From the NCBI GenBank assembly GCA_045837725.1, contig JBEWZL010000227.1, forward strand, positions 1 through 64,000: a stretch of DNA of 64,000 bases, written 5' to 3'. The notes under the pieces were generated by a model that saw only the letters and a list, made by a program, of their open reading frames with translations, was not told where the DNA came from and ran no database searches. The position numbers and the translations under genes were made by a program. Origin of the DNA: Vermamoeba vermiformis. Lineage: Eukaryota. This document shows, piece by piece, positions 6,180-62,801 of the stretch. Position 1 is the first letter of the stretch; each line of letters opens with the position of its first letter.

Positions 6180-7579
6180 ATGGAGAAAGACACCGTTGAA
6201 AGCGCTAACAAGAAGCTGACTTTTCGCAAGTACGCTTCGATCGAGAACAGTTATCTTGATAAATTCATAGAATCAATTATTAATCAAGGCCACACGGACA
6301 ATAATGCTCAGTGGGTAGCTCTGGAGAAAGGTATTTATTTTTAATTAAAATTCGCTTAAATATCAATTAATTATTAACCACTTGCCAATTCGGATTGCTA
6401 ACTGTGCAATATTAATATAGTTCACGGAGCCAATTTTTCATTCATTACTGACGGCGTGGAAATTCATTGTGCCAAACGTAGCGGATTTATCGAAGCCGAC
6501 GAAGTGTTTCACAACCACCACCTCGTGTTAGAAAATCACCGCAACAAAATATTGAAAGTTTACGCTGCTCTAAAAGAGAAGTATCCTGATCTGGTCGAAG
6601 TTGCTATTTATGGAGAACTCTTCGGAGGTAACTCTAATTTAAATCGCTTTAAAAATTAACGCAATTAACTTTCGAAAGTTCAACTAAATTATAACGCCCT
6701 TTTACTATGACTGATGGACGTTGTTTAGGAATTTATCCACATAAGGACGTTCCTGGCGGTCAGGGACTGAAGAGCGAGTCAGGAAGGTGCTTGCACGTGC
6801 AAAAAGACATCTATTATTGCCCGAACATCAATTTTTTTGCTTTCGATATTGCTGTGCCCGGAAAAGGTAAGCGAGAGCGTCCACAGCGAGAACGTTGCAT
6901 CCCGTACTCCTTGGGCTTAGAACTAATACTGCTTATCACTAGGCTATTTGCATTATGACATAGTGGAGCCTCTCTTCAGAGAGCACGGATTCTTGTACGC
7001 CGAACCGATCAGGTACGGTACCTTGAAAGAGTTGCTCGAGATCGACGTTGAAACTTTCGAATCCACTCTGCCTGCCAAGTTTGGATTGCCGCCTCTTCCA
7101 AATAACTACGCTGAAGGCATTGTTATCAAGCCAATTATCAACAAATACATGACCACGGGCGAGCGCGTCATCGTTAAAAAGAAGCGATCTACTTTCATGG
7201 AGAAAAAGCCGAGGCTGGCTCCCAAGAAAGAACTCAAAACTACTATGGCGGATAACGTGCGCGAGATGTGCGAAGAGGTCGTTACATATGTAACATTGAT
7301 GCGCTTGAAGGCTGTTATTTCTAAAGAAGGACATATCACTGCTCCCAAGTTTGGAAAGCTGCTTGGACTCTTTGCCAAAGTAATTGATAGATCTGTCTCT
7401 GTAAGCATTTAATTGACACATTTTTATCCTAGGATGCTCTTGACGACTTCAGAAAAGAGGTTGAGGACTTCAATCAACTCGAGAACGAGGATCGCAAGCG
7501 CGTGACAACCAGATTGAACAATGCTTGTTCCAAGATGATTAACGATAATAGACAAGCTATTTTGGATGGAAATTTGTAA
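6180..7579 (+). CDS. ATP-dependent RNA ligase, Rnl2 family (T4 Rnl2 / kinetoplastid REL-like), 5 exons
   Basis: Introns 6331-6420, 6628-6728, 6867-6942 and 7380-7432 give a continuous frame. Motifs: I EKVHGANFS, Ia AKRSG, III IYGELFGG, IIIa FFAFDI, IV EGIVIKP, V IVKKK, plus C-terminal RLKAVISKEG and DALDDF. Confidence 0.92.
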
Positions 7580-22643: not shown

Positions 22644-24607
22644 ATGTCCGCATCCCAACCAACGATCGAACATAACCACCATAACCATGGGCACCACCAT
22701 CATCACCATCATCACGATAGATCAAACCGTCAGTATCTGGACAAGTAAGTTGTTGGGTTGCCAAGCAATTTTAAACGAATTTCGTGAATAATTTTAACAC
22801 GGTTACTGATCGAGTAATAATTCGTGTTTACGTACAAATATCATTATTTAAAGACATAATAATTTTTCAATACTATTTGGTGGTGAAATGGGGCAGTTGT
22901 ATGGTTCTTAAGTACTATTAAATTTTTTTTTCAAGAACTTTCAAAAATTATTCCAAATCCACGAAGCCAGCTTAATGCTTTCTTTTGCTACAATTATTAT
23001 TCCATATCAAACTCTCGGAACTAGAAATGAAATACCGCAAAGATATGAAATTTCTGCCTAACATTACAATGCGGGCAAAACCACGTGATTCCAAACATAA
23101 ACGGAAAATTTCTTTTGAGTTCCATTTCAATTTTCTGCAACAAGCAAATACCACATAAGGGCTTTGTTTTATATTTGTATTATATACCCCCTTTAAAAAC
23201 TGTATTTATATTTGTAAATGAGTACCCTGGTTATGAACGTTGAGACATTTCCCTTCGCTCTCGGCGCGGGCAAATGCAAACACCCTCATGTTGTTAAAAG
23301 GTAAGCTGGCTTCGAATAATATACTCTATGACGTGCATAGACGTTATACTTTTTATACGAGAGGTTTTTTTTAACTTTAGGCCTTATAAAACGCGTCTCT
23401 GCGGCAGGAGAATCTAAGTTCTTTTGATCCCAGGGATTATCCCAAAGCGTTGTAATAATGATACCTCTAATAAAACAGAGTTCGATATGCGTCCTTGCTT
23501 TCGATGCATTACTTTTGTAACCTACTAACCGCCCCACCACCCAAACTAACCTCAGATTTCCCGAAAATTAAACTCAATTTGTTCAGTGAACTTAACTAAC
23601 CTTGCAATTTTATTAACTATAGAATACAACAACTTACCGAAGACATCCCCGTTGTTATTGACGCCACCAAACTAAAGCCTTTTGGACATCAGGTTTCGGG
23701 TCACGCGGTTTTATACAAACTCGACGGCGGCAAGATTATAAAGCCTTCAAATTCGCATGAAGTTGAGGTCTACAAAGCTCTTCAAAAGCACCACTCTCTT
23801 TTGCCGTTCGTAGCCGGTTTTTACGGGACTACCACTCCGCCACCCGATCTTTCACTGAAAACAACCACCCGTTCCCATGCCAAAATGCAAGAAGACAACC
23901 GCCGCGAGAACATTTTTATTATCATGGAGGACCTGACCCATAAATACAAGAACCCTTGCCTCATGGATATTAAACTTGGCCAAATCTTGTATGAACCCGA
24001 TGCGCCTTTGGAAAAGAAACTTCGAGAAGACAGGAAAGCCCACGAGACGACAACTCATGAATTTGGTGTCCGCGTTGATGGTATTCGTGTGTACAAACCT
24101 CGTACAGCTGAATTTACCGTGCGCAAGCAAGATTATGGCTGGAAACACTCTGTCGAAGACAATCTCCGAGTATTTTTAGACAACGGAGAAGTCCTTCGCA
24201 CAGATCTGATACCTCACTTCGTTGCCAAGCTCGAGAAGCTGTTTAAAGTCCTGTTCAAGCATTCGAAGTCCTTCAACTTCTTGCAAAGCTCGCTCCTGCT
24301 CATCTACGAAGGAGACGTCTCCCGGTCGCCGCCTAGCTCTCCTCAAATCAACAGTGCCGCTCGTGTATCCGAAGGTGCTGTTGCCGGCGAGGAGGACGCG
24401 GCTGCTGCTGTTGAGAGTGTCGAGTTTGACGATGACTGGTGCCCCGTGGATGTGCGTCTTATTGACTTTGACCACACTCACACCAAGTGCTGCAAGTTCG
24501 GCGACCACGAAGAAGAAGATGTTGGTGACTGCGGTTGCACGGTCGGTATTAAGTCGCTGCTGAATAGCTTTAATACCTTGGCCCAAGACAAGTCGCACAA
24601 TATCTAA
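22644..24607 (+). CDS. inositol polyphosphate kinase (IPMK/IP6K family) with His-rich N-terminus, 2 exons
   Basis: Exon 1 (22644-22744) and a phase-2 intron (22745-23622) join in frame. Motifs HQVSGH, MEDLT, PCLMDIKLG (PxxxDxKxG), SSLLLIYEG and VRLIDFDH. Confidence 0.92.
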
Positions 24608-34581: not shown

Positions 34582-36029
34582 ATGTTACACAATCACAATA
34601 ATAACTCAACTGTATTGGACACAGTTTGTTCGATGGTCAGCGATAAAGAGGCTAAAAGACTGGCGGGTAAATATGGCTTAGACATCCAGCTCGTAGCTTG
34701 GGAAGATAATGCTCGATCGAAGAACAGTGTATGGGGTCCTTGCATTTCAGACAGTAAGCAAAGAACTCAAAATTAAAATCATTTACTTTCCGGATTAGTT
34801 AAAAAAAATGTTACTAACCGTTCAAATTAGTGACTTTGCAAGTCAATACTCGTGCCTTACCAGTAATTCGAGCACCAAACTACACCGACTTGACTTGGGA
34901 CATCCCAATCGAAAAAATTCCTCTCGTTGTCGGCAATGAGAAAGGCACCAATTTGCGGGTGGTGACGTTGAAGGAGTATTTGAATAACTTCCGAAACTAC
35001 TTGCACAGGCCCAACAGCTGGAAGGGCAATAGAGTCTCACTGCTCGCTCCTCGCGACTCACACGTGGTGACGTCAGCGCAAGCTTGCTTCTTGCCGATCC
35101 CGAGCTCTGAAGACGCCAAGTTCAACGTTGCTATTTACAACTACCAAACGACCGCGAACAACCCTGCTGTGCTGGCCATTGTGGCCTCGAGCAAAGGCAC
35201 TTCAGCACAAGTCTTGGGCCAAAACAGTGCCATGCGCAAATTGTTCTTCAACAACAACGGTGAAAAATGCTCGTTCTTGGGTCAGCGATTGAGCGACTAC
35301 CGCATCGACCAGGGCCAGACTGAAGACCTGTCAGCACCCATGTCGCAAGAAGAGACGCAGCAGAACATGTTACTCATCATTCAAGTGCCGCTCAAACAAA
35401 AGTCGATACTTAATTACGACAAAATCACTATCAAGAGGAAGACGAACTTTGGCGCTCATATCTCTTCATCTTTAACCTACCAACAACAGAAAGAGTCCAA
35501 CGTGGAAGATGCGATTATTAGCATTGGTGAGAGTGAGGGCGAGTTCAACGAGATCAACGACTTGGAGATTGAACGCGATGAGAAGTATCCAGTGCGCGTC
35601 ACAGTGCAGTTCTACAAGGCCACGGACAATGGCGTGGTGAATGAGCAGGACATCAAGCAAATCTCCGAGCAGATCCACGGTGCACGAACGAATGCAGATT
35701 TCATTGGCTCGCTCGTGGTGGCTGGCACAACGAACAGACCCACCGAGCCCAACTTGTCCAGCAGCACTACAACAAATGACATTGCGCCGCCTTGGTGGAC
35801 CGAATTTTGGCTCGTGCACGGTCCCAACTACCCGCAGTACACAGAACAGCGTGCCAAGGACAAAGTGTTCTCTGACGGCAGATACCGAAACAGCTCGATG
35901 AACGATGTGCACGAACAAATCATCGACTTGTTGGACGAAAGTGAATCGAACGAGAACGAGCCCGCTCAGCCTTTGCTGGGCTGGTTGAAAAGTAAATTGG
36001 CCTCTATATTAGGTATTTTTGGATATTGA
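34582..36029 (+). CDS. conserved-looking protein of unknown function, 2 exons
   Basis: Intron 34754-34830 joins VAWEDNARSKNSVWGPCISD-MTL to a 399-codon open frame containing AQACFLP and FNVAIYNYQT. Confidence 0.8.
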
Positions 36030-36334: not shown

Positions 36335-37684
36335 ATGTCCAAACTATTTATCATTTATTTAGCCTTCATCGGCTTGGCTGTTGTATCGTGCGATCCACAA
36401 CTCGACGCGTTGCAAGATCTGTATCGTGCAACTAACGGCAAAATATGGCGTAATAGCTTAGGATGGAACACAACAAACTACTGCTCATACTACGGCGTCA
36501 GATGCGACGGAGACAAAGTTGTTTCGTTGAAATTAATTCGAAACAATCTTCAAGGGACGATTCCCAGCTCTATTGCAAGCCTGTATTACTTGCGCAATAT
36601 TAGTTTGGCTGAAAATGTCATTTCCGGTCAGATCCCGCCTTCGATCGGCAAATTGTATTTCCTGCAAGAACTGCGACTTAGCACGAATCGATTGACTGGA
36701 CCTATTCCTATGGATGCGATTAGTGGTCTACAATCATTAGTTGAACTCGATTTGGGCTACAATGAACTTACAGGCACTCTTTCGTCCTTGATCGGCAACC
36801 TCAGCAATTTAACGAGACTGACTCTGGACAGAAACAAATTAACTGGCAAGATTCCATCGACTGTAACCAATCTCAAGAAGTTGCAGATTTTCAGTGTGGT
36901 CTACAATGCTTTTTCTGGTCCAATTCCCGACTTCTTCAGTCAATTGCCGCAGCTTTGGGGTTTATCCTTATTAGGAAATCAATTCGCCGGAACTATCCCC
37001 GACAGCATTGGCAACATGACGCAGCTCACGTGGCTTCAACTTGGCTCGAATAAATTGACTGGCACAATCCCGAACTTCATTGGATCTTTAGTGAATCTGG
37101 ATGCACTTTGGCTGAACAGCAATCAACTCACTGGTACTATACCTGAATCTATTGGCCGCTTGACGAAGATGCAGTGGCTGTATTTGGAAGCGAATCAACT
37201 CACCGGCACCATTCCTGCTTCCATCCGCAACTTGAAGCAACTTAACACCGCTCAATTTTACACCAATCAATTGAGCGGAACAATTCCTGAATGGTTCAGT
37301 GAACTACAACAATTACTGCTGCTCGGTCTCAACGACAACAAGCTCACCGGAACTATTCCAGAATCGTTGAGCAAGTGCGACAGCTTAATGTACCTCTATT
37401 TGGACGACAATAGGCTCACTGGCACACTGCCAGCATCGTTTGGCAATAAGAAGTATATGGGTAGCCTATCATTCAGCCACAATAATTTGACTGGATCCGT
37501 TCCTACTTCGTGGAGCAATCTCCCGATCCAATACCTCAAGCTTGACGGCAACCAATTAGATCACGTGTCAGTGACTGCTCCGCCGCTCTATCCATTGTAC
37601 GTATGCGATTTGAGCGACAATCCATTCAAGTGTCCGATCCCTGACTGGGCAAAGAATGATTGCAGCGCAACGTGTCAACTGTAA
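36335..37684 (+). CDS. secreted plant-type (PGIP-like) leucine-rich-repeat protein, intronless
   Basis: Signal peptide, LRRNT cap (ATNG..W..W..C.YYGVRC), many 24-aa LxxLxLxxNxLTGTIP repeats and a Cys-rich cap (CDLSDNPFKCPIPDW..C.ATC). No TM helix. Confidence 0.95.
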   Translation: MSKLFIIYLAFIGLAVVSCDPQLDALQDLYRATNGKIWRNSLGWNTTNYCSYYGVRCDGDKVVSLKLIRNNLQGTIPSSIASLYYLRNISLAENVISGQIPPSIGKLYFLQELRLSTNRLTGPIPMDAISGLQSLVELDLGYNELTGTLSSLIGNLSNLTRLTLDRNKLTGKIPSTVTNLKKLQIFSVVYNAFSGPIPDFFSQLPQLWGLSLLGNQFAGTIPDSIGNMTQLTWLQLGSNKLTGTIPNFIGSLVNLDALWLNSNQLTGTIPESIGRLTKMQWLYLEANQLTGTIPASIRNLKQLNTAQFYTNQLSGTIPEWFSELQQLLLLGLNDNKLTGTIPESLSKCDSLMYLYLDDNRLTGTLPASFGNKKYMGSLSFSHNNLTGSVPTSWSNLPIQYLKLDGNQLDHVSVTAPPLYPLYVCDLSDNPFKCPIPDWAKNDCSATCQL

Positions 37685-40821: not shown

Positions 40822-41525
40822 TTAATTTAGCGGGAAGAATTCAGATTGAGCGTCGACTTTGCGCCAAGTAGGACGTGAGGATATCTCTTGCCACCAGCGC
40901 ATAACATTAGGGAATTTTTTGTATAATTCAGCAATTTGCGTTACTCGAGACATCAAGATCTGAGTATCAGGCAAGTACACAATATCTAGGCTACTGTTAA
41001 ACATATATTAATATTTTTAATATTAGATGGCTTACCGGCAATAGTAAAATGTTCAGCGGCGATGAACTTTGATTTTGCCAATCTCTGATCCAATACTTCG
41101 AGAGCTTGAACTAATCTGACTTCAGCGTCTTTAACTTTATCTTCATTCGTTCCTTGGCCAAACAGCGGATAAAAAACCAATTCAGCAGCCAACTCTTGAG
41201 CAGCACAGTAATAAGATTGCTCGATCGAGATCCATTGATCAACAATTGCGCGTGCTTTCGGGTCAGCAGGATAGAGAGTACCATTACGGTCATATGCATT
41301 CACTAAGTAGCGAATAATAGCACGTGACTCGTAGAGTTGGAAATCAGATCCGTCTTCCAACACTGGCACTTTGCCCCAAGGCTGCTTTGCGAGGTAATCG
41401 GGCTTCTTCATTTGCTCAGCACCAATAGTGATGAACTCGTATGGAAGATTGAGCTCTTCAAGAGTCATCAATACGAATCTGGTTCTGAGCGATGCACGCA
41501 GACCGTAGATCTTGATTGAAGACAT
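40822..41525 (-). CDS. glutathione S-transferase (phi-like), copy 1, 2 exons
   Basis: QPWGKVPVLED, LYESRAIIRYL, VDQWISIE, FTIA-DIVYLP and RWWQEISSRPTW. Confidence 0.95.
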
Positions 41526-41744
41526 TTGAATAGTGGGTAGTACGTTGATTGAACAAATATTCAATTGAATAACGTAATTTTTAGGCTTTTAGCGCGCCGC
41601 GGAAGTGTCAGGAAGATTTCAATTCACACGGAGAAACGGGATAATCCCAGCTGCCCTAAATTCCAAGAATTTGAAATGGATCTGCATTTATTGATAATGA
41701 GACCTGTTTACAAGCGATAATACTCGTGCAGTAACTGGTCAATT

Positions 41745-42450
41745 CTAGAACTCGGATTGAGTATTGACTTTTTGCCACGCAGCACGAACGGAGATTTCTT
41801 TCCACCAACGGATTACATTGCTGTGTTTTTCGTACAGCGCGACGTATTGAGGCAAGCGAGCCAAGATGAACTGAGTGTCAGGCAAGTACACGATATCTAA
41901 AAGTATGCCGTTAGTTAAAGACTAATACAAAGCGTGTGCAATAGGTGAAAAAGTACGTACCAGCAATGGTGAAGCGATCACCGCCCATGAACTTCGACTT
42001 GGCCAAGTGTTTGTCCATTACTTCGAGTACTTTAGCCAATTGCACTTCAAGGTCTTTAACCTTGGCCTCGTTAGCGGTCTTGCCGGACATCGGACCGAAG
42101 AAGAGCTCGCCGATCAGCTCATTGGCAACGACGTAGTATGATTGCTCGATCGATATCCATTGGTCGACAACGGCTCGTGCCTTTGGCTCGGCAGGATAGA
42201 GAGCGCCAGTGCGGTCATATGCGTTGACCAAGTAGCGGATGATAGCACGTGACTCGTAAAGTTGGAAATCAGATCCGTCTTCCAAAACTGGCACTTTGCC
42301 CCAAGGCTGCTTTGCGAGGTACTCTTGCGACTTCATTTTTGCAAAGTCGATGGTGACGAATTCGTAGGGCAAAGCAAGTTCTTCGAGAGTTGCCAGAACA
42401 GCTCGAGTTCGGAGAGATCCGCGCAGACCTAAAACCTTGATGGAAGCCAT
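41745..42450 (-). CDS. glutathione S-transferase (phi-like), copy 2, 2 exons
   Basis: Same motifs and same intron position as copy 1; tandem paralog. Confidence 0.95.
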
Positions 42451-43370
42451 TTCTTTGGGATAAATGTGGTAAGTTGTTATTACTTGTGTTTGTGTTGTTT
42501 TGTTGCTGTTGAGATTGAATTTAAAAGCGGATCTGCTCGCTATTTATACTTTGATTACGGAACTTGGAAGCTTCCAAATAGTAACTTCTCGAAAGCCCTA
42601 AAACTGAAAATAGTAGCATTTAAGTTTTTCGCGCAAAGATTAGAAGCCATTACTAAATTTGGAAGTTTCTAAATCTTCGAATTTCCATAGTAGCTTCCAA
42701 ACGGTTTCTATTTAAAATCTTTGCTTCGAAATACAAATAATCGCCGCGGCGGAGGTGCTTCCGATAGTCGGACTAACATTTCTTTAGGTTCTCAACAATG
42801 TTAGGAAAAGAGTCTGTCTGCGGGTTTGGTCATATTTTCAATATATATCAATCATTCCAGTCGTGGATCAGGTTTTGTAGCCGGATCAGGTTCGGTGATC
42901 AAGGAATTCGTAACTGCACCTCAACAAATATTCCTCCAAAGCGTGTAATTGAAAGAAGACCACGTTGTTCGACTAAGATCCCGAGGATGCGCCAGACCTT
43001 CGCTCCAAAAATCATTCTAGGCACTGCTCGTTACGTACAATGTAGCTCTAGAATGTTAAACACTCGTAAGTTTTCCTACAGCGACTACGGTATTACTGGC
43101 CGGCCTAACCTTCGTGAAATTTGGCAATTAACGAATTTGATTTACAAGATTTAAAATCCAACCACACTCACGTTAAATCCGATATTCAAAAGAATACAAA
43201 GAAATGCGCGAGCATTTTCTATTTTCATTTTTTAGCTCGAAATTATTTTACGAGCACAAGTTTGAACGTCAATCACTGTGACAGCTTTTTTATTTGTTTT
43301 TTCCACGCGTACTTATTTATTGATTTATTTATTTATAGCAACAGCACAAATCTGCTGCTAATTCAGCCAA

Positions 43371-46300
43371 ATGAGAGCTGCTTGGTTGAATATCGCGTGC
43401 TTCGCGGCACTACTCGTACTTGCTAACGCCGAATGCCCACATCTGACCCCTGGCTTATTGCCTTGGAGCAGTGCAAGCTCGTGGACTTCTAACAGTGTAC
43501 CCACAGGTAATTACGCACTAAATTAAATTAATGGCGAATCAAAACAAATTTATTTCGGCTGATCTGAGTAGTCGGCAGTTTAAATGATGTCTAATATAAA
43601 GAACCTGTGATATTGATTACTAAAAAATAATATACAGCCGGTGGTGACGTTATTATTCCTACTGGAAAGAAGATCTTGCTGGATGTGTCCCCGCCCGATC
43701 TTAATACGCTGACTATTGAAGCGGATGCCCAATTGGTTTGGTCTCCTGCTGGCGATTATGAAATACGCTCTAACTACATCCTCGTTAAAGGTAAGCCTGA
43801 TGATTCAATTGGAATATGATTCGATATTGTCCAGGATGAAATTTATCTTGCGAAACTGACACATTTGTCAACCCGAAAAAACTTCGACATTGTTTTTAAT
43901 CTTTTTAACTGTTATATTAATATCTTAGCTAGTGTATCCCTCTAATATTAATGTATTTCAGGCCGCTTTGATATCGGCAGCGAAGATTGCAAGTTCGACC
44001 GCAAGGCCATCATTACCTTATTAGGTAAAGTTGGCACGGGTCCTACTGTCACAGGATTCGGTCGCAAGTTCCTAGGTGTCGCCATGGGCGGAACAATTGA
44101 ATTGCACGGTGCAGATCCTTCACCAGCCTGGACTAAGCTTGCCAAAACAGCTCACAGCGGCGTGTCAATGGGTGGTGCCTCTTTAAGCACCCTTGACCGT
44201 GGCTTTAATATTGCAGGTATTTATCGCGAATCTTAGCAACGGTTAGATTGTGACACAGATTGTGAGCGTAACTTCAATTTGTGCGCCAAGATTTGACACG
44301 TGTCAATTACTCGTCACTACGACAACTTCTTACCAAGCAATTACTAACCGCTATTTACCGCTAGTGTTCAGTCCTGAAGGAGTTAAGCTCGACTACCGCG
44401 CATTCGATTTGCTCGACAATTCGACAGTGCAGAACACGATGACCGAGTTTTTGAACCAACAACCACAAGGCTCGATCATTGCCGCAGGAATCTCCGACGC
44501 AATCTCACCGAACACCGAAATCTCCGATGCTACTTTCCAAGCTTTTGAAGCCTTTGGTGCCAAACAGATCCGTTCACGCAACTTCCGCGACTCTTACGCA
44601 CTGATTGGTGTCAAGGGTGGCGATGCCGTTGAGAACTACGCTGTCAATGGCACCGTTGCTACTATTTCACGTGAATTAAAATCCAGTACGTAACTTCCAG
44701 AGTTAAAAACAAAATTTTTTAATCAATGGCAGATGCAGGTCAGAACTTCAGAGTCGAAGTTCAATCATTGGGCTGGCTTCAAGGCCCGCCATGGCCCTTC
44801 ACTAGCATCTCATTGACCTTCTTCGGTGAAACCATCCTTGAGTTCGTCGATGAAGTGAACTGGAAGGCAGGTGACAAGATCGTTTTAGCTGCCACAGACT
44901 ACGCTCCAGAGCAGTCTGAAGAGGCCACACTCGTCGCTTGTCCCGAGTGCTCTCGTCGCCAAGTCAAAATCTCACAGATGCCCAAGTACATGCACTACGG
45001 AGAGATTACTGACTGCGTTGATGAGCGTGGTGAAGTCGGTCTTTTGACACGCAACATTGTCGTGCGCGGTGAAGTCGAAGACAACTGCTACGGGCTTGCT
45101 GAGTGCGACCTGCTCAAGTATGGTATTGACTTATACGGCGGTACGTAGTTAAGATTTGGTTGTGATGTGATGGCGAGTATTTGACACGTGTCAAACAGGT
45201 CACTTCAAGGTGATGAAGGGTTTCGTCAATGCACACATTGAAGGTGTTGAATTCTACAAGATGGGTCAACAGATCCTCGGCAAGTAAGTGACATGTAATT
45301 ACAATGCTCGAGTTCGTTTATTGACACTTTTGACACCTGTCAGTTACCCCGTTCACTTCCACCTGTGCGGTGATGTTGACGAAATCGGTGGCTACTCACA
45401 ACCAGCTTATGTCAAGAAGAATTCAATTCACCGCTCGCTCTCTCGTTGTGTTACTATTCACGGGTACGTGCTTCATGATTGTTGACATTTTTGCTGACAT
45501 CTTTTCAGTACGAACGGTTTGTTCGTACAAGACAACGTGGCCTATGATCACATTGGCCATTGCATCTTCTTTGAAGACGGCATTGAACGACGTAACGTGA
45601 TTGATCACAACTTGGCTCTTTGGACTCGCTTTGGCACTTTGTTGCCCACTGACCGAAACTGCGACACTTGCAAGGCAATGAAAGCGCCTCTTTCTAACCC
45701 AGATACGGTCTGTAGCGAGTGTTTGGCGCTCTCGACTTATTGGCTCACAAACCCCGACAACGTCCTCACGAACAACGTCGCTGGTGGCTCTGACTTTGTC
45801 GGCATCTGGTACATCTTCCCTGAACGTCCCACTGGCGAGTCCGAAGCCTTGGGTAAGACATTACTGATATCTTATGATTACTCCCTAGCCTAACAATGTG
45901 TAGGTATTCAATTGGGCATCAGACCCGCTTGGACTGCAATGGGTGTGAACGCGAACAACACCGCACATTCGAATAGAAACAACGGCATGTTCATTGATAA
46001 CGGCATTAAGGCTGGTGATCAAACACAAGCGTCCATTGAACAACACTTGGGCATGATTGGTGCACGCTTCAATCCTCGTGTCAACTTCACTGACAGAAAC
46101 AGCGTATGTCTCACTCGCATTAACAATAGTCCTTTCTGACCCTAGTTATCAGGCACGTGCTCCTGCGATCGTGCAAGGCTACAGAGCGTACAAGAATGCC
46201 AATCGCGGCGCTTGGGTCCGTGGTGGTGACATTTGGTTCGAAGATTCGGTCTTCGCTGACAACGCCATTGGCCTCACGCTTGCTAGTGAAGGGTAAGGAC

Positions 46301-48326: not shown

Positions 48327-50205
48327 TTAATGGAACGAATATGAATACAAGTGCGGCATCTTCTCTGCAAATTTACGTAGACCTTTCTTTTTCATTCCCT
48401 GGGCACGTGCATACCGCGATGCAAATTTCAACACTTGTAGCGTGGTCAAGTAGTGCAAATAAAGGCCTGATAATCTTTTGGATTCGGTTACTTCCAATCG
48501 CGTCAAGTTGAATAACGCCGTCAACGACGCAATCTTTTTATCGGAATCCACGTGACAAAGTTCCAAACTTTCCAGCGCTGTCAATTTGGTCAACGATTGC
48601 CAAAAAAGGAAATCGTTCATTTCTGTCGGCAGGGCCAAACATTTCAAATTCACCAATGAAGCGAGGCACGTGCTATTTTGGGCTAACTGTTTTTCTGTCA
48701 ATCTCATTTCCAAATTAGTCAATTTTGTCGCGTGACTGAGGTCGTCGAGAATGGTCGTCGGAGCTGATCCGATGCGCAATACTTCCAAATTAGTCAATTT
48801 CGAAAGTGACCAATCGGCAACCAGCCTAAATGTAGAAACGTATCTATAGACTTCTAAATTAGTCAAATTCGTCAAATTGCCGACACTTGTTAACGACGGC
48901 CGCGAAGTGACCACCCTGATATCCAAGCTGACCAAATTAGTCAAGTGACTTAACGCACTATAATCCACGTGACATTGTTGTACGTCCGTCTCTATCATGC
49001 AGAGTGTTTTCAGTGAATGGTGCAAGCTGGTCAAATGCGCAATGCGGACAGCTGGATGCACCGACATTTGCAGTGCAGTTAAGTGCGGCAATGTAACTGC
49101 ATCAAATAGGTCGCGAGTAGTTATAAATTTTTTGCAATATAGTGCTTGCAGTGCTGTCAACGGGGCCAGATCCAGCTCGAACGGATGTGTCACTTGTTGC
49201 CATCTGATCTCCTCGACGGTCAATTTTTTGAGGTTGTATAAGGCGCTTAGTTGTGAAATTTCCGATGTCACGTGACCGATATGAAGTGCAGTTATATTAG
49301 TCATATTGTAACAGCCGTAATAATTGGGGCCGTTAATGACCAGATCTCGAATTGAGGTTAGCTTGCTGAGTCCTATTTGATTTTGGAAATTGTACTGGAC
49401 GTCGGTGAATTGAAGATTTTGGAGGTTGGTGAATCTCATCAGCCTATTCAAATAGAAAATGTCGTGATATAGGACTATTTTTGTTACACGATCCGGATTT
49501 GGCATGAAATCATAGGGCTCTTCCACTCTTTGACCTAGATATCTAGAATATACGAATTCTTCTATATTAGGCATTCGTTGTAGTTCGTCGTTGCTAGACA
49601 TGCTCACGTTAACGGATCGCATGTTGAAAAATTTTCCGAACGGGCAATTCGGAAACACGATCAATTTTGTTAATTGCGTCAATTTCCATAGTCCATCCGT
49701 AACTCTTATATATAGGGGCAAAAAATCGAACGACAAAGCTGTCAAATTCGATAATCTCCAGATGTGGTCTACGTACGGGCTCAACTGCCGTTCAATGCTT
49801 TTCTTGAAATGAACTCCGAGAGGAATATTTCCATAATTGGTAAGCACGTGATCCACGATCGCTGGTAGAGTCGAAGCTTTTGTAAAATAAAAGTTGAAAT
49901 CCGACATCTGGATCTGCTCGCGATAAAAGCTATTTGTGGCTCGCATATTCATTTTAGCATTGTAATTCAATTGCTCCAAAATTAGGCGAATTATCTCCGT
50001 AGGCAACCGCTCGTGAAAATAATCCTAAATTAAAATATTAATTAATAAATAATTAGGCAAGCCTAAATTCCTATATTATAATAAAATCGATATTTGCGTC
50101 ATTTTAAATATTTAATTAGACTGGTAGGTAATTATCTCCGTGGTAAAGAGGTTGGTGTGAGATGCAGTGAGAAAAAACTACGAAATTTGTTTGTGCGCAT
50201 ACCAT
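48327..50205 (-). CDS. F-box + leucine-rich-repeat protein
   Basis: An ATG-only first exon (50203-50205) and an intron precede the F-box-like RLPTEIIRLILEQL. Many LxxLTNLxxL repeats follow. Confidence 0.85.
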
Positions 50206-59146: not shown

Positions 59147-60425
59147 CTAGTTTGATGCACATTGTGCATGACACACACTTGAGATCCAGTTTGGAATTGG
59201 GCACTTAAGCATGTTGTGATCCATCCTACAATCGTACAAGCTAGTTGGTTTATTCATTGTTGGATTGACGCCTGATAGTTGATTATATTGGAGTCTTAAG
59301 GTCGTAAGATTATTGAGTTGTACGAATGATGATGGAATAGTGCCTGATAGTTGATTGTTGTTGAGCCATAATTTCTGAAGATTATTGAGTTGTCCCAACG
59401 ATGATGGAATAGTGCCTGCTAGTTGATTGTTGTTGAGATATAAGTTATAAAGATTGGGTTTTCCCAATGATGATGGAATAGTGCCTGATAATTCATTGTG
59501 GTCAAGATATAAGTTATAAAGATTATTGAGTTGTCCCAAAGATGACGGAATAGTGCCTGATAGTTGATTGCCGTCGAGAAGTAATTCTTCAAGATTATTG
59601 AGTTGTCCCAATGATGGTGGAATAGGACCTGATAGTTGATTGTTGTTAAGCCATAAGTATTGAAGATTATCAAGTTGTCCCAACGATGATGGAATAGTGC
59701 CTGATAATTCATTGTCATTGAGGTTTAAGTCTTTAAGATTATTGAGTTGTCCCAATGATGATGGAATAGTGCCTGATAGTTGATTTTTGGCAAGTGTTAA
59801 GATTGTAATATTATTGAGTTTTCCCAATGATGGTGGAATAGTGCCTGATAGTTCATTGTAGGAGAGAAGTAATTCTTCAAGATTATTGAGTTGTCCCAAT
59901 GATGATGGAATAGTGCCTGATAGTTGATTGCTGTTGAGCCATAATTTTTGAAGATTATTGAGTTGTCCCAACGATGATGGAATAGTGCCTGATAGTTGAT
60001 TGCCGTCGAGCCATAATTTTTTAAGATTATTGAGTTGTCCCAATGATGGTGGAATAGTGCCCCTTAGATAATTTCTGCTGAGAAATAACACAGTAAGATT
60101 AGTGAGTTGTCCCAATGATGATGGAAGCGTGCCCCTTAGAAAATTTCTAGGGAGACCCAAACTGATTATCTAGATTAATGTTAGTATTGTAATTGAGTTT
60201 GGAAAGAAATACTACCTGATTGTTTGAATCACACTCAACGCCGCTCCATTTGCACTCACTCAAATTTGAAAGCCATCCGTCATTGATTTCCCAACCAGTT
60301 CCGTTCGTAGCCTTGAAAAATTCCACCAATATATCTCGCTGATTGAAAGGTTTTGCTTGGCTTGATGAGATCAGAAGCGCTGAAATTACAAAAAGCACAG
60401 CGCCGGAAAACCACAGTTTTACCAT
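59147..60425 (-). CDS. secreted plant-type LRR protein with about 13 highly homogenised repeats, 2 exons
   Basis: ATG at 60425 with signal peptide and LRRNT cap (ATNGTGW..W..CKWSGVEC); intron 60215-60170; 72-bp repeats; Cys cap CRMDHNMLKCPIPNW..C.AQC. Confidence 0.93.
59275..60145. repeat. 72-bp coding tandem repeat (LRR modules)
   Basis: Recurrent + strand block GATTATTGAGTTGTCCCAA(T/C)GATG(A/G)TGGAATAGTGCCTGATAGTTGATT with a 72-bp period and one 69-bp unit. Confidence 0.95.
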
Positions 60426-61952
60426 TGTTACGTATTGTGTTGCGTTATCAGTATTTCGCGACAAGAAAACCAGAACTTTTTTCAACTTATAAAAGTGAAA
60501 AGACCGCAGTACGACCAATCGTGCGTAAAATAAATACGCACTAGCGTAAAAGGAAGGCCATAATAATAGTCTCAGTCGGAAATTCATTCCGTCCCAAGTG
60601 GAAAAAATCTCGTCCCTTGAATATTGTAGGTTAGCTAACGATAAAATACAGATAAATACATCGAATCGATAAAGGGCAACTTACATATAAAAGGCGAGAA
60701 GCTCCAAAAAAGCGCATCTTCTGCCGATCCACGAATCCAAATCAACTTCTCATGCGTCTGCTCAGTGAAAATCTGATTCCCTTCGCATGTACAGCGGTCA
60801 AGATTACAGCCAAATTTAGACCTCACGTGAAGCAAAGTTCATCGGGACATTATCCAAAGTTGGCATTGACCGCCGTACTTTGGAAAAGCTTGGTTACACC
60901 GTTTATCAACGTTTTTCACGAAAATAAGCATTGGAGTATGATGTATTAGCATTTTGCAAAGGCTTGACGCCGCGAAAGCGCTGGATCTGTATATTTCGAT
61001 CGAGATCCGCATCGCTTTTTCGCTCCAAAACTGTTGCACGTGCTGCCGCGTAGTCAAATTTTCCCTGGGTATACTTACAATTAATAGGGCAGACAAAATA
61101 CCGACTATAGCTCAATTGGCTGTTCAGCTGAGGGTGTTAGATGTGACGTCCCTATCGCGTTGGATAATTCATCCGGCTTTGCTGTTTTAAATTACTATGA
61201 ATCTATGACAAGTTGTGGCGAGGGGAGCAATATTATGGCATACGGAGGTACGAAGATCTGGATTTGGTTGAAAAAAATCTAACAGAGATGATGTAGTCAC
61301 GTGTGCCCTTGGCTAATTCTGTATTCTAGAGTTAATATCGACTATATTGAGCTTAGACAACTGGCCTGGAATGGTCCAAAAGAATGAGAGGAGCTGGAGA
61401 CTACTTTTCTCTTATTAGCGACGCAGGCTGTCAATAACGACTCGTTATTAAATGTTGAGGAATAAAACAGAACAATTGCTCGAGTGACTTGACGATAAGA
61501 TCGAGATTTAGGAGATTATTCCAAAGAGAAAAAGCATTGAATTTTTTTCGATGCGTACTGGAAGCCAACACCAATGGACGAAGCCGCCATTACAAATGTA
61601 TTATTAATCGTTATATCTCGATTGAAGCAATCAGAGGACAGTTTTGAAGTCTTTAAATCACTCTTGAATTTGTCAACCGCTTCAAAGTCATGTAAAAAAT
61701 ATTTAAATGACTACAAAAATTAATTGAAACAAGTAATAGATATGTAAGAGGTACGAGTGATTATTGTACTTAATTTTGTAACGTTTCCGAATTTTATATT
61801 CAGATCGAACTCGGTTTGTGGTGAACAAACTGCAGTTCTTCATACGCAATAATGATTTTGAAGGGTTTGAAACATGTAAGTAATTGGAGATAATAGTAAA
61901 AGTTTCTTACTAATGTGAAAATTCTTTCAGTGGCAGATTTGTTCGTTGAGCG

Positions 61953-62801
61953 TTACACAAGACTACTTTCCATCTCGTCTTCATTACTCTCTTCGTCTTC
62001 GTCTTCGTCATCTTCAACCTCGTCTTGTTGACTATTGTCCTTTTGATCCTCGCTATCTTCAGCGTCATCCTCTTCAGGTACATCCAGAGCAAAGAACAGC
62101 GGAGGTAAGTTTTCTAGCTTTCGTGCCTTCATCAATTCCTTCGCTTTTTTAGTATCGTCGAATTGACACGATGCAAATCCGTTCCATTTCTTAGCTTCCC
62201 AAGCCCATCCACGAGATGTGAGTTCTTGTTCACGTAACACGCACCAAAAGTAAGTTTTCTCGACGAGTTTTATCGATGGATCGTCCGCATCAATTCCACC
62301 TGCCATAACTTCGCTCCATAGCTTATAGTCAACGCGCTTTTTTTTCTTCTCTATCTTCACGGAGAACTTTTTGTATTTATGGTAGATCCATCCGGTTACT
62401 GTGTAAGACAGACTCCATTCGCGGTACTCTAAATAGTTGCTGAATATCGAATTTGTGGAACACTTCATTAGGAATAACTCTTCATTGGTTAGAAGATGCT
62501 TGGGTATTGACAATAAATAACGAGATGAATCTGTTTGAATTTGTATGTTGCAAGCCGTCAAGGCGGGAATTCCGTATTTTTCTCTGACGTAAAGAGCTAT
62601 GGCACGGGTTTGAGAGGATATCATAGCAAATAGCGCCACAGTTAGCGTTTGATCTTGAAAAGTGACAGCGGATTTCATGATATGTATCCATAATTCGTTT
62701 GGAAGTGGGTCGATGGCTTTAATATAATTATCTATTTTTTGTTTTTTATTTTCTTTCTCCTCACTAACGTATTCGAGCTTTCTTTTATTGTTTTGGCTCA
62801 T
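61953..62801 (-). CDS. hypothetical nuclear protein with F-box-like motif and acidic tail
   Basis: 282-aa ORF with basic NLS-like KRK..KKQK, DPLPNELWIHIMK and a D/E-rich C-terminus. Confidence 0.7.
   Translation of the reverse strand: MSQNNKRKLEYVSEEKENKKQKIDNYIKAIDPLPNELWIHIMKSAVTFQDQTLTVALFAMISSQTRAIALYVREKYGIPALTACNIQIQTDSSRYLLSIPKHLLTNEELFLMKCSTNSIFSNYLEYREWSLSYTVTGWIYHKYKKFSVKIEKKKKRVDYKLWSEVMAGGIDADDPSIKLVEKTYFWCVLREQELTSRGWAWEAKKWNGFASCQFDDTKKAKELMKARKLENLPPLFFALDVPEEDDAEDSEDQKDNSQQDEVEDDEDEDEESNEDEMESSLV

What the first reader, a model, noticed from the sequence alone, without database searches (positions are those of the whole stretch)
59147..60425. Secreted LRR built from shuffled 72-bp modules with hypervariable faces: candidate VLR-like diversified recognition system
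Seen: framework codons (NQLSGTIPSSLGQLNNL) are nearly identical between repeats even at synonymous sites, while the concave-face positions vary: KKLWLDG, QKLWLNS, EELLLSY, TILTLAK, KDLNLND, QYLWLNN, EELLLDG, YNLYLDH, YNLYLNN, QKLWLNN, TTLRLQY. Modules are mosaic at the nucleotide level. EELLLDG (~59568-59595) joins the 5' half of the EELLLSY repeat (~59856-59883) to the DG half of the KKLWLDG repeat (~60000-60027). YNLYL and KLWL likewise recur with different 3' halves. The repeat region is AT-rich compared with the paralog at 36335-37684, which has the same caps but fully diverged repeats. Established: lamprey VLRs and plant LRR receptors diversify the same positions. Inference: ongoing recombination or conversion generates a repertoire of secreted binders.
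Basis: partly seen in the sequence, partly recalled or inferred. Interest (0 to 1): 0.75.

Follow-up and report, generated by a model that had tools for sequence, protein, structure and literature searches.

The report
Secreted LRR protein with diversified repeats
This is an intact gene for a small secreted leucine-rich-repeat protein whose recently amplified repeats keep one scaffold and differ on the likely binding face, a familiar way for recognition proteins to evolve and not a lamprey-style gene-assembly system.

Summary
A minus-strand, two-exon gene (60425..60216, a 46-nt intron, 60169..59147) encodes a signal peptide, an N-cap, 13 tandem 24-residue plant-type LRRs and a four-Cys C-cap.

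- **Diversification pattern.** In the ten core units, framework codons 9-24 are nearly identical (dS 0.14, dN 0.07). The five x positions of LxxLxLxx have dN 0.90. The Leu codon lying between them is TTA in 10 of 10 units.
- **Mosaicism.** Evidence is moderate. The site-level PHI test gives p 0.0006-0.009 and the codon-level test p about 0.05.
- **The VLR-like reading is not supported.** The gene is complete. No orphan cassettes lie in the 64 kb. No deaminase domain was found in 55 of 56 ORFs scanned. No variable module is shared with the paralog or with 24 database relatives.
- **Family.** A C-cap profile recovered 37 proteins with this cap, carrying 1 to 9 recognisable units against 12-13 here. 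A subfamily has the same 16-residue framework.

Best reading: recent tandem amplification by unequal exchange, plus diversifying selection on the concave face of a secreted binder. The closest parallels are plant extracellular LRRs and fungal NLR repeats with high internal conservation. The organism and the ligand are unknown.

The parts
60216..60425 (-). Exon 1 (70 aa): a signal-peptide-like leader (MVK plus a 16-residue hydrophobic run, then SSSQA) and a Cys-containing N-cap (RDILVEFFKATNGTGW...CKWSGVECD).
   Evidence: No Pfam hit. It is 62% identical over 65 aa to the N-terminus of relative P0274, which starts at the equivalent Met. The signal-peptide assignment is inference from the sequence.
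60170..60215 (-). A 46-nt spliceosomal intron, phase 0, running GTAGTA...TACTAAC...TAG.
   Evidence: Sequence read. Removing it joins ...VECDSNNQ to IISLGLPRNFLRGTLPSS. This parallels ...VRCDGDKVVSLKLIRNNLQGTIPSS of the single-exon paralog and ...VRCNSENQVSALHLSDNQLKGTIPSS of P0274.
59147..60169 (-). Exon 2 (340 aa plus a TAG stop): the LRR array and the C-cap.
   Evidence: Pfam LRR_1 7e-48 and LRR_8 4.4e-32. PDB best match is the GSO1 ectodomain at 1.3e-144. AF2 model pLDDT 82, pTM 0.85.
59237..60169 (-). Thirteen tandem plant-type LRR units (U1-U13; 72 bp each, U10 69 bp).
59309..60025 (-). Core array U3-U12. The framework NQLSGTIPSSLGQLNN is nearly invariant, synonymous sites included. The five x positions of LxxLxLxx are hypervariable.
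   Evidence: mean pairwise nt identity 0.83, aa identity 0.715. The longest exact direct repeat is 51 nt.
59150..59284 (-). C-terminal cap, NQLSGVNPTMNKPTSLYDCRMDHNMLKCPIPNWISSVCHAQCASN, with four Cys. The protein ends 4 residues after the last Cys, so there is no membrane anchor.
   Evidence: No Pfam model covers it. The same cap ends 37 of 149 proteins examined from the profile search.
36335..37684 (+). Single-exon paralog (449 aa): homologous N- and C-caps and 13 recognisable LRR units that have diverged from one another.
   Evidence: unit nt identity 0.46, and Leu codons at L1, L4 and L6 use 7-9 different codons.

Best explanation
The locus is an intact germline gene of an unidentified microbial eukaryote. 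It encodes a small soluble secreted protein made of a signal peptide, an N-cap, 13 plant-type LRRs and a four-Cys C-cap.

The array grew recently by tandem amplification of one or a few 72-bp units. Unequal exchange or slippage between misaligned units is the likely mechanism, and it also produces chimeric units. The scaffold residues are held by purifying selection.

The five solvent-exposed residues of each beta-strand segment (positions 2, 3, 5, 7 and 8 of LxxLxLxx) have been replaced faster than synonymous sites. This points to diversifying selection on a concave ligand-binding surface. The protein most likely acts as an extracellular binder whose specificity evolves quickly on an evolutionary timescale.

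- **Shown:** the gene structure, the repeat statistics, the fold class, the existence of the family, and the absence of donor cassettes in the window.
- **Inferred:** secretion, binding function, selection as the cause, and unequal exchange as the mechanism.
For: - **Gene model:**; supported by relative P0274.
- **Substitution rates in core units:** framework dS 0.141 and dN 0.071. The interleaved L1/L4/L6 codons have dS 0.20 and dN 0.03. The x positions have dN 0.90.
- **Recent common origin of whole units:** the L4 codon lies between hypervariable codons 3 and 5 and is TTA in 10 of 10 core units. N9 is AAT in 10 of 10. In the paralog, L4 uses 9 different codons in 13 units. Synonymous change is therefore free in this genome, and whole units share a recent origin. 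Homogenisation of contiguous tracts does not explain the pattern.
- **Homoplasy and exchange:** 77 of 136 informative site pairs, 26 of 55 codon pairs and 5 of 10 framework site pairs are incompatible with one tree. PHI gives p 0.0006-0.009 at site level and 0.048-0.19 at codon level.
- **Fold:** the variable positions fall on the predicted strands, for example E51-55 in unit 3. The model superposes on MIK2, FLS2 and PXY ectodomains with query TM 0.81-0.84.
- **Family:** 37 of 149 examined hits end in the same cap. Recognisable unit number ranges from 1 to 9 in 24 family members, against 12 in this gene and 13 in the paralog.
- **Scaffold constraint:** the 16-residue framework consensus is 16/16 identical in P0273 and P0274 and 15/16 in P0345 and P0328. 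Their N-caps are only 43-62% identical to this gene's. This indicates constraint on the scaffold.
Against: - Selection is inferred from paralogous repeats within a single gene. No orthologue or population data were available, and recombination between units distorts dN/dS estimates.
- Codon-level PHI is only marginal.
- No single chimera is significant after correction.
- Mean amino-acid identity of the units is 71.5% and the longest exact repeat is 51 nt. The array is therefore not an obviously unstable one today.
- Secretion and binding are untested, and no ligand is known.
- Identical frameworks in separate proteins could also reflect exchange between loci, which this explanation does not need.
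Confidence: 0.68

Rival explanations
1. **Germline exchange among many paralogs.** The variable modules are imported by gene conversion from other cap-bearing family members elsewhere in the genome. This is how WD repeats move within and between nwd loci of Podospora anserina. The family as a whole would then be a shuffled repertoire.
For: - A family exists: 37 of 149 examined hits carry the cap.
- A subfamily has the identical 16-residue framework despite diverged caps, as concerted evolution across loci would give.
- Units within the gene show homoplasy.
- The precedent is described in PMC2873952 (abstract and Background read) and PMC4986451 (passages).
Against: - None of the 12 variable octamers or their first six residues is shared with the in-window paralog or with 24 database family members.
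- The in-window paralog shares no module and has diverged repeats.
- The database sequences are 50%-identity representatives of unknown organisms, so this test is weak.
Confidence: 0.15
2. **An old array with a homogenised framework.** The units are ancient and their binding residues diverged slowly. Short-tract gene conversion keeps only the framework identical.
For: - The framework shows four-gamete incompatibilities at very low divergence: 5 of 10 site pairs.
- Identical tracts of up to 51 nt exist as conversion substrates.
Against: - Leu codons interleaved 3-6 nt from the hypervariable codons are as invariant as the framework: L4 is TTA in 10/10 and L1 is CTT in 9/10. Contiguous conversion tracts cannot skip single codons.
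- The paralog shows what old units look like in this genome, with 9 different codons at L4.
Confidence: 0.08
3. **Neutral tandem duplication with relaxed constraint.** The x positions are simply unconstrained, and no adaptive diversification is involved.
For: Surface residues of LRR strands tolerate substitution. No functional data exist.
Against: - dN at the x positions (0.90) exceeds dS of the framework (0.14) and of the interleaved Leu codons (0.20) about 4- to 6-fold. Neutrality predicts equality.
- The x residues are rich in N, K, Y, D and W.
Confidence: 0.07
4. **VLR-like somatic assembly.** Cells rebuild the array from donor cassettes, or shuffle it somatically, to make a clonal repertoire.
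For: Only the resemblance: LRR modules with variable concave faces and one apparent chimera.
Against: - The gene is complete and in frame, with a canonical intron and no non-coding spacer in place of the repeats.
- No partial cassettes lie in the 64 kb.
- No deaminase domain was found in 55 of 56 ORFs.
- The LRR class and the caps are plant-type, not those of VLRs.
- The defining VLR features are taken from PMC12264053 (passages read).
Confidence: 0.02

Closest known systems
Plant extracellular LRR proteins: LRR receptor-kinase ectodomains (GSO1, FLS2, MIK2, PEPR1) and soluble relatives such as PGIP
   Same: - The 24-residue plant-type repeat LxxLxLxxNxLSGxIPxxLGxLxx.
- PDB sequence matches at 1e-144 to 1e-110.
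- Fold match with query TM 0.81-0.84.
- An N-cap of the LRRNT_2 kind in the family.
- A concave strand face that carries the variable, ligand-contacting residues (PMC3138743 passages).
- A soluble secreted architecture like PGIP. The PGIP architecture is recalled, not tested here.
   Different: - No kinase or transmembrane segment.
- The C-cap (C..NxFKCPIPxW....CxAxC at the very C-terminus) matches no Pfam model.
- The repeats are far more alike than in the plant proteins.
- The host is a microbial eukaryote of unknown lineage, and no ligand is known.
Repeats with high internal conservation in fungal NLRs (Podospora anserina nwd/hnwd WD repeats; also ANK and TPR repeats)
   Same: - Near-identical tandem units.
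- A few surface positions per unit under diversifying selection.
- Chimeric units produced by intragenic rearrangement.
- Repeat number varying among family members.

Sources: PMC2873952 abstract and Background; PMC4986451 passages.
   Different: - Those are intracellular STAND proteins with WD, ANK or TPR repeats. That survey found no LRRs (PMC4986451).
- Their units are about 85% or more identical in amino acids, against 71.5% here.
- Instability and exchange between loci were shown experimentally there and are untested here. No shared modules were seen.
Lamprey and hagfish variable lymphocyte receptors
   Same: LRR modules of about 24 residues between Cys caps. Diversity is concentrated on the concave face, and segments of modules can be joined.
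   Different: - VLR germline genes are incomplete.
- They are completed somatically from hundreds of flanking donor cassettes.
- Completion uses a gene-conversion-like process linked to AID/APOBEC deaminases (PMC12264053 passages).
- None of these features is seen here, and the caps and LRR class are unrelated.
Bacterial consensus-like plant-type LRR proteins (many with T9SS sorting domains)
   Same: These are the best database matches to the repeat region, at 46-61% identity. They have similar frameworks and similar N-cap motifs.
   Different: - They lack the C-cap. None of the 238 hits contains C.IP.W.
- A scan of 185,579 prokaryotic genomes with the cap gave only 4 chance heptapeptide hits.
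- This gene has a spliceosomal intron.

Membership tests
Variable lymphocyte receptor-type somatic assembly system | The germline gene is incomplete: a non-coding intervening sequence lies between the N- and C-terminal coding parts. | tested here: not met
   The complete ORF has 13 LRRs. Its only interruption is a 46-nt GT..AG intron with a TACTAAC branch site between the N-cap and LRR1.
Variable lymphocyte receptor-type somatic assembly system | Arrays of partial LRR donor cassettes flank the gene. | tested here: not met
   - tblastn, blastn (word size 7) and a degenerate framework pattern find LRR sequence only inside the two complete genes, apart from a weak match in the 559-aa LRR ORF at 48.4-49.0 kb.
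- The test covers only this 64-kb window. Lamprey cassettes span hundreds of kb (PMC12264053).
Variable lymphocyte receptor-type somatic assembly system | An AID/APOBEC-family cytidine deaminase is associated with assembly. | tested here: inconclusive
   No deaminase Pfam domain appears in 55 of the 56 stop-to-stop ORFs of at least 110 aa in the window (ORF list). The rest of the genome was not available.
Variable lymphocyte receptor-type somatic assembly system | Different assembled sequences occur in different cells of one individual. | not testable with these tools
   This needs reads or amplicons from a clonal culture.
Plant-specific class of LRR | Tandem 24-residue repeats with the consensus LxxLxLxxNxLSGxIPxxLGxLxx. 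| tested here: met
   Units are shown. Pfam LRR_1 and LRR_8 match. The best PDB matches are plant LRR-RK ectodomains. The consensus string itself is recalled and agrees with the one quoted in PMC3138743.
PGIP-like soluble plant extracellular LRR proteins | Signal peptide, LRRNT_2 N-cap, about 10 plant-type LRRs, a plant-type C-terminal Cys cap and no membrane anchor. | tested here: inconclusive
   - The leader, the LRRs and the lack of an anchor are met.
- LRRNT_2 is just below cut-off in the paralog (19.7 against 20.7 bits) and absent from exon 1. It is above cut-off in 6 of 15 family members.
- The C-cap matches no Pfam model.
- Polygalacturonase inhibition was not tested.
Repeats with high internal conservation (as defined for fungal NLRs) | Over 85% amino-acid identity between units over at least 100 residues (criterion in PMC4986451). 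| tested here: not met
   Core units have mean pairwise aa identity 0.715 and nt identity 0.829, with a maximum of 0.944. The framework alone is 0.81 identical in amino acids.
Repeats with high internal conservation (as defined for fungal NLRs) | Diversifying selection is confined to a few surface positions per unit. | tested here: met
   dN is 0.90 at the five x positions. dS is 0.14 in the framework and 0.20 at the interleaved Leu codons. This is a comparison of paralogous repeats, not a codon model on orthologues.
Repeats with high internal conservation (as defined for fungal NLRs) | Units are shuffled within a locus and exchanged between loci; alleles differ in repeat number. | tested here: inconclusive
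   - Within the locus: PHI p 0.0006-0.009 at site level and about 0.05 at codon level. The best chimera has p 0.008 uncorrected among 254 triplets.
- Between loci: no shared modules with 25 family members.
- Allelic variation was not testable.

The most novel reading that the evidence does not exclude
A lineage of microbial eukaryotes maintains a multigene family of small secreted plant-type LRR proteins built on one fixed 16-residue scaffold. Their concave-face modules would be continually reshuffled by mitotic or meiotic repeat exchange, both within and between loci. This would give populations, and perhaps clonal lineages, a fast-changing extracellular recognition repertoire. It would be an LRR-based, secreted counterpart of the fungal NLR repeats with high internal conservation.
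Probability: 0.12. Interest if true: 0.6.

Novelty: new member of a known kind. Interest (0 to 1): 0.3.

Why it matters
Near-identical repeats whose binding-face residues change fast are a recurring route to new recognition specificities. Plant resistance and PGIP genes and fungal NLRs are examples. This locus shows the same signature very clearly in a small secreted LRR protein of a poorly sampled microbial eukaryote.

It also defines a family with a distinctive C-terminal cap that no Pfam model covers. If these proteins bind prey, microbes or foreign enzymes, they would be a simple entry point to extracellular recognition in protists. They would also be natural consensus-scaffold LRR binders.

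The locus does not indicate a new adaptive-immunity-like mechanism.

Tried and rejected
- **Homologue searches with the repeat region and with the paralog.** They were swamped by bacterial and plant LRR proteins: 5956 and 6796 hits among 8000 scored candidates each. The best hits were 59% and 46% identical. No orthologue appeared, the window's own protein was not listed, and no organism could be inferred.
- **P0001, the best hit.** It is an unrelated leaderless LRR protein.
- **Organism identification failed.**
  - The IPK gene's best relatives (93% and 90% identical) are unnamed environmental sequences.
  - Atlas look-ups gave nothing for the 399-aa ORF and only 'Eukaryota' for IPK.
  - Rfam and tRNA scans of the window found nothing.
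- **Prokaryotic genome scan with the C-cap.** Of 31 pattern matches, 4 loci passed tblastn. All four are chance heptapeptides in ORFs of 24-91 aa without LRRs.
- **Higher-order repeat structure.** Mean divergence by lag is flat, 0.16-0.20 for lags 1-9, so there is no clear block duplication. This is despite the TRF rows at periods 144 and 216.
- **Triplet chimera scan.** Nothing survives Bonferroni correction.
- **P0257, the top hit of the cap profile.** It is a 4900-aa plant-RLP-like protein with no cap motif. Long multi-stretch hits of that search are therefore generic LRR matches.
- **A reverse-transcriptase-based (DGR-like) mechanism.** It was considered and dropped. No such domain was seen in the ORFs scanned, and the gene is eukaryotic.
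- **Not checked.** DNA of the relatives, and hence their synonymous sites, alleles and neighbouring cassettes, stayed unexamined.
Full report
**1. What is there**

The finding sits on a minus-strand gene of a eukaryote. Two overlapping ORFs in different frames (59147..60160 and 60147..60587) are joined by a 46-nt intron at 60215..60170. The intron begins GTAGTA, contains TACTAAC and ends TAG.

Exon 1 (60425..60216, 70 aa) encodes MVK, a 16-residue hydrophobic run, SSSQA, and then a Cys-containing N-cap. Exon 2 (60169..59147) encodes 340 aa. The spliced junction ...VECDSNNQ|IISLGLPRNFLRGTLPSS parallels the uninterrupted paralog and the database relative P0274. P0274 also starts at the equivalent Met, which argues against the upstream in-frame ATG at 60587.

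The window is clearly eukaryotic. It holds split genes for a GH3 glycosidase and an amino-acid permease, plus inositol polyphosphate kinase, GST, F-box, BTB and CEMIP-like domains. GC content is 0.41.

I could not name the organism:
- The IPK gene's best relatives are unnamed environmental sequences at 93% and 90% identity.
- The two Atlas look-ups, the Rfam scan and the tRNA scan gave nothing useful.

**2.

Tandem Repeats Finder gives 12.0 copies of a 72-bp unit at 59270-60133, with 79% matches and score 887. In register there are 13 units; U10 lacks one codon.

Rates in the ten core units U3-U12:

| Codon class | dS | dN |
|---|---|---|
| Framework, codons 9-24 | 0.141 | 0.071 |
| Leu codons L1, L4, L6 | 0.20 | 0.03 |
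| x positions 2, 3, 5, 7, 8 | not reliable (multiple hits) | 0.90 |

Further measures:
- Core units differ at 0-8 of 48 framework nucleotides and at 2-14 of the 24 variable nucleotides.
- Mean pairwise identity is 0.83 for nucleotides and 0.715 for amino acids.
- The array is more AT-rich than the paralog: GC 0.358 against 0.448, and GC3 0.31 against 0.52.
- The paralog at 36335..37684 has homologous caps. The C-cap is 41% identical with four conserved Cys.
- The paralog's units are only 46% identical to one another in nucleotides.

**3. What the pattern means**

The key detail is the interleaving. The Leu codon at position 4 lies between hypervariable codons 3 and 5, yet it is TTA in 10 of 10 core units. 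L1 is CTT in 9 of 10, and N9 is AAT in 10 of 10. In the paralog the same position uses 9 different codons in 13 units, so synonymous change is free in this genome.

Homogenising contiguous tracts cannot keep single codons identical while their neighbours differ at two or three bases. The simplest reading is that whole units share a recent origin. Replacement substitutions then accumulated at the x positions 4 to 6 times faster than synonymous ones. That is the signature of diversifying selection on those residues.

Structural evidence agrees:
- The single-sequence AlphaFold model (pLDDT 82, pTM 0.85) is an LRR solenoid. Its strands cover positions 3-7 of each unit.
- It superposes on the MIK2, FLS2 and PXY ectodomains with query TM 0.81-0.84.
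- The best sequence matches in the PDB are plant LRR receptor-kinase ectodomains (GSO1 1.3e-144, FLS2 3.1e-125).
- In that class the strand face is the concave surface and is the usual ligand site (PMC3138743, passages read).
- The x residues are rich in N, K, Y, D and W.

**4. Mosaicism**

Homoplasy is real. Among informative characters of the core units, the following are incompatible with a single tree:
- 77 of 136 site pairs;
- 26 of 55 codon pairs;
- 5 of 10 framework site pairs.

Neighbouring sites are more compatible than distant ones, with site-level PHI p 0.0006-0.009. Sites within a codon are not independent, however. When codons are treated as single characters the signal is marginal (p 0.048, 0.059 and 0.19). 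With the diverged end units included, the signal disappears.

U9 follows U5 at five sites and then U3 at seven sites, with p 0.008. Bonferroni correction removes it.

No clear block structure exists. Mean divergence by lag is 0.16-0.20 for lags 1-9. The longest exact direct repeat is 51 nt.

Exchange between units is therefore likely but not proven. Chimeric junction units are the expected by-product of ordinary unequal crossing-over or slippage in a tandem array. They need no special machinery.

**5. Test of the VLR-like reading**

According to passages read in PMC12264053, VLR systems have three defining features. The germline gene is incomplete, with a non-coding spacer. Numerous flanking donor cassettes are copied in somatically. 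The process is linked to AID/APOBEC deaminases.

Here:
- The gene is complete.
- tblastn with the caps and repeats finds only this gene, the paralog and a weak match in a different LRR ORF at 48.4-49.0 kb.
- blastn with word size 7 gives 37 HSPs outside the gene. Of the 15 best, 13 lie inside the paralog (best E 2.6e-4) and two are E 1.6 chance hits.
- A degenerate framework pattern matches 19 times, 11 in the gene and 8 in the paralog, against 0.02 expected.
- No deaminase domain appeared in 55 of the 56 ORFs of at least 110 aa.

This covers only 64 kb. Cell-to-cell variation could not be examined.

**6. The family**

Whole-protein searches were swamped by bacterial and plant LRRs. None of those 238 hits has the C-cap.

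A profile of the two C-caps (A1) was run against 1.84 billion representatives. It gave 310 hits at E up to 0.001. Of the 149 new sequences examined, 37 end with C(6-9)C[PA]xPxW(3-6)C(2-4)C at the very C-terminus. The long multi-stretch hits are generic LRR matches.

Among the 37:
- 17 show the N-cap motif.
- 11 start with Met followed by an uncharged run. Many of the others are fragments.

Recognisable 24-residue units number 1 to 9 in 24 family members, against 12 in this gene and 13 in the paralog.

P0274 (211 aa) is the closest relative by N-cap, at 62% identity. In P0274, P0273, P0345 and P0328 the framework consensus is 16/16, 16/16, 15/16 and 15/16 identical to NQLSGTIPSSLGQLNN. Their N-caps are only 43-62% identical to this gene's. 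Their within-protein identity is 0.69-0.96 for the framework and 0.06-0.40 for the x positions.

The fixed-scaffold, variable-face design is thus a property of a subfamily. The scaffold is under protein-level constraint, or is exchanged between loci. I cannot tell which, because the organisms and the DNA of these relatives are unknown.

None of the gene's 12 variable octamers or hexamers recurs in the 25 other members.

The cap was not found in prokaryotes. A scan of 185,579 genomes gave 4 loci, all chance heptapeptides in short ORFs.

**7. Comparison with known systems**

In architecture and fold this is a plant-type extracellular LRR protein. It is most like a soluble PGIP-style protein (architecture recalled), but with an unrelated C-cap that Pfam does not model.

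In evolutionary behaviour it resembles the repeats with high internal conservation of fungal NLRs. Those have near-identical units, four selected surface positions per unit, intragenic rearrangements that create new unit variants, and exchange between loci (PMC2873952 abstract and Background; PMC4986451 passages).

It does not meet that literature's 85% identity criterion (71.5% here). That survey also found no LRRs among such fungal repeats.

My literature searches turned up no description of this cap family. They did not target the cap family, so I make no claim that it is unpublished.

**8. Verdict**

The locus is a clean example of a known evolutionary mode in a new, uncharacterised family of secreted LRR proteins from an unidentified microbial eukaryote. 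It is not a VLR-like system.

Still open:
- whether modules move between loci;
- whether the array is unstable today;
- what the protein binds.

Noticed in passing
Relatives P0314, P0323, P0357, P0343, P0338, P0329, P0275 (no window coordinates): Seven of 15 cap-family members scanned carry the end of a Peptidase_S74 (endosialidase chaperone) domain upstream of the N-cap and LRRs. Some family members are therefore C-terminal modules of larger proteins, possibly autoprocessed.
   Followed up: partly
window 48327-50006 (-): A 559-aa ORF encodes a different LRR protein (Pfam LRR_14, 6.6e-13). It is only weakly similar to the paralog (26% over 213 aa) and lacks the caps.
   Followed up: partly
window 59147-60169 versus 36335-37684: The two paralogs, 21 kb apart, differ strongly in third-position GC: 0.31 against 0.52. 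The amplified unit has fixed an AT-rich codon set.
   Followed up: partly
window 59453-59521 (-): Unit U10 has 23 residues (LGKPN instead of LGQLNN) because of a 3-bp deletion. It is the only length change in the array.
   Followed up: yes
window 34830-36029 (+): A 399-aa ORF immediately upstream of the paralog has no Pfam family and no usable Atlas hit.
   Followed up: partly
window 44247-45890 (+): Exons of a CEMIP-like gene: an ILEI domain at 44247-44690 and a CEMIP beta-helix at 45498-45890 (6e-42).
   Followed up: no
window 40989-42543 (-): Two adjacent glutathione S-transferase genes lie in tandem.
   Followed up: no
window 6927-7409 (+): An ORF matches the T4 RNA ligase 2 C-terminal domain (1.8e-07).
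   Followed up: no
window 23801-24607 (+): The closest relatives of the inositol polyphosphate kinase gene are 93% and 90% identical sequences from unnamed environmental contigs. The next hit is 35%. The organism therefore has close kin in environmental data but no named relative in the word-based search.
   Followed up: partly
window 61953-62801 (-): A 282-aa ORF next to the LRR gene has a strongly acidic tail and no Pfam family.
   Followed up: no
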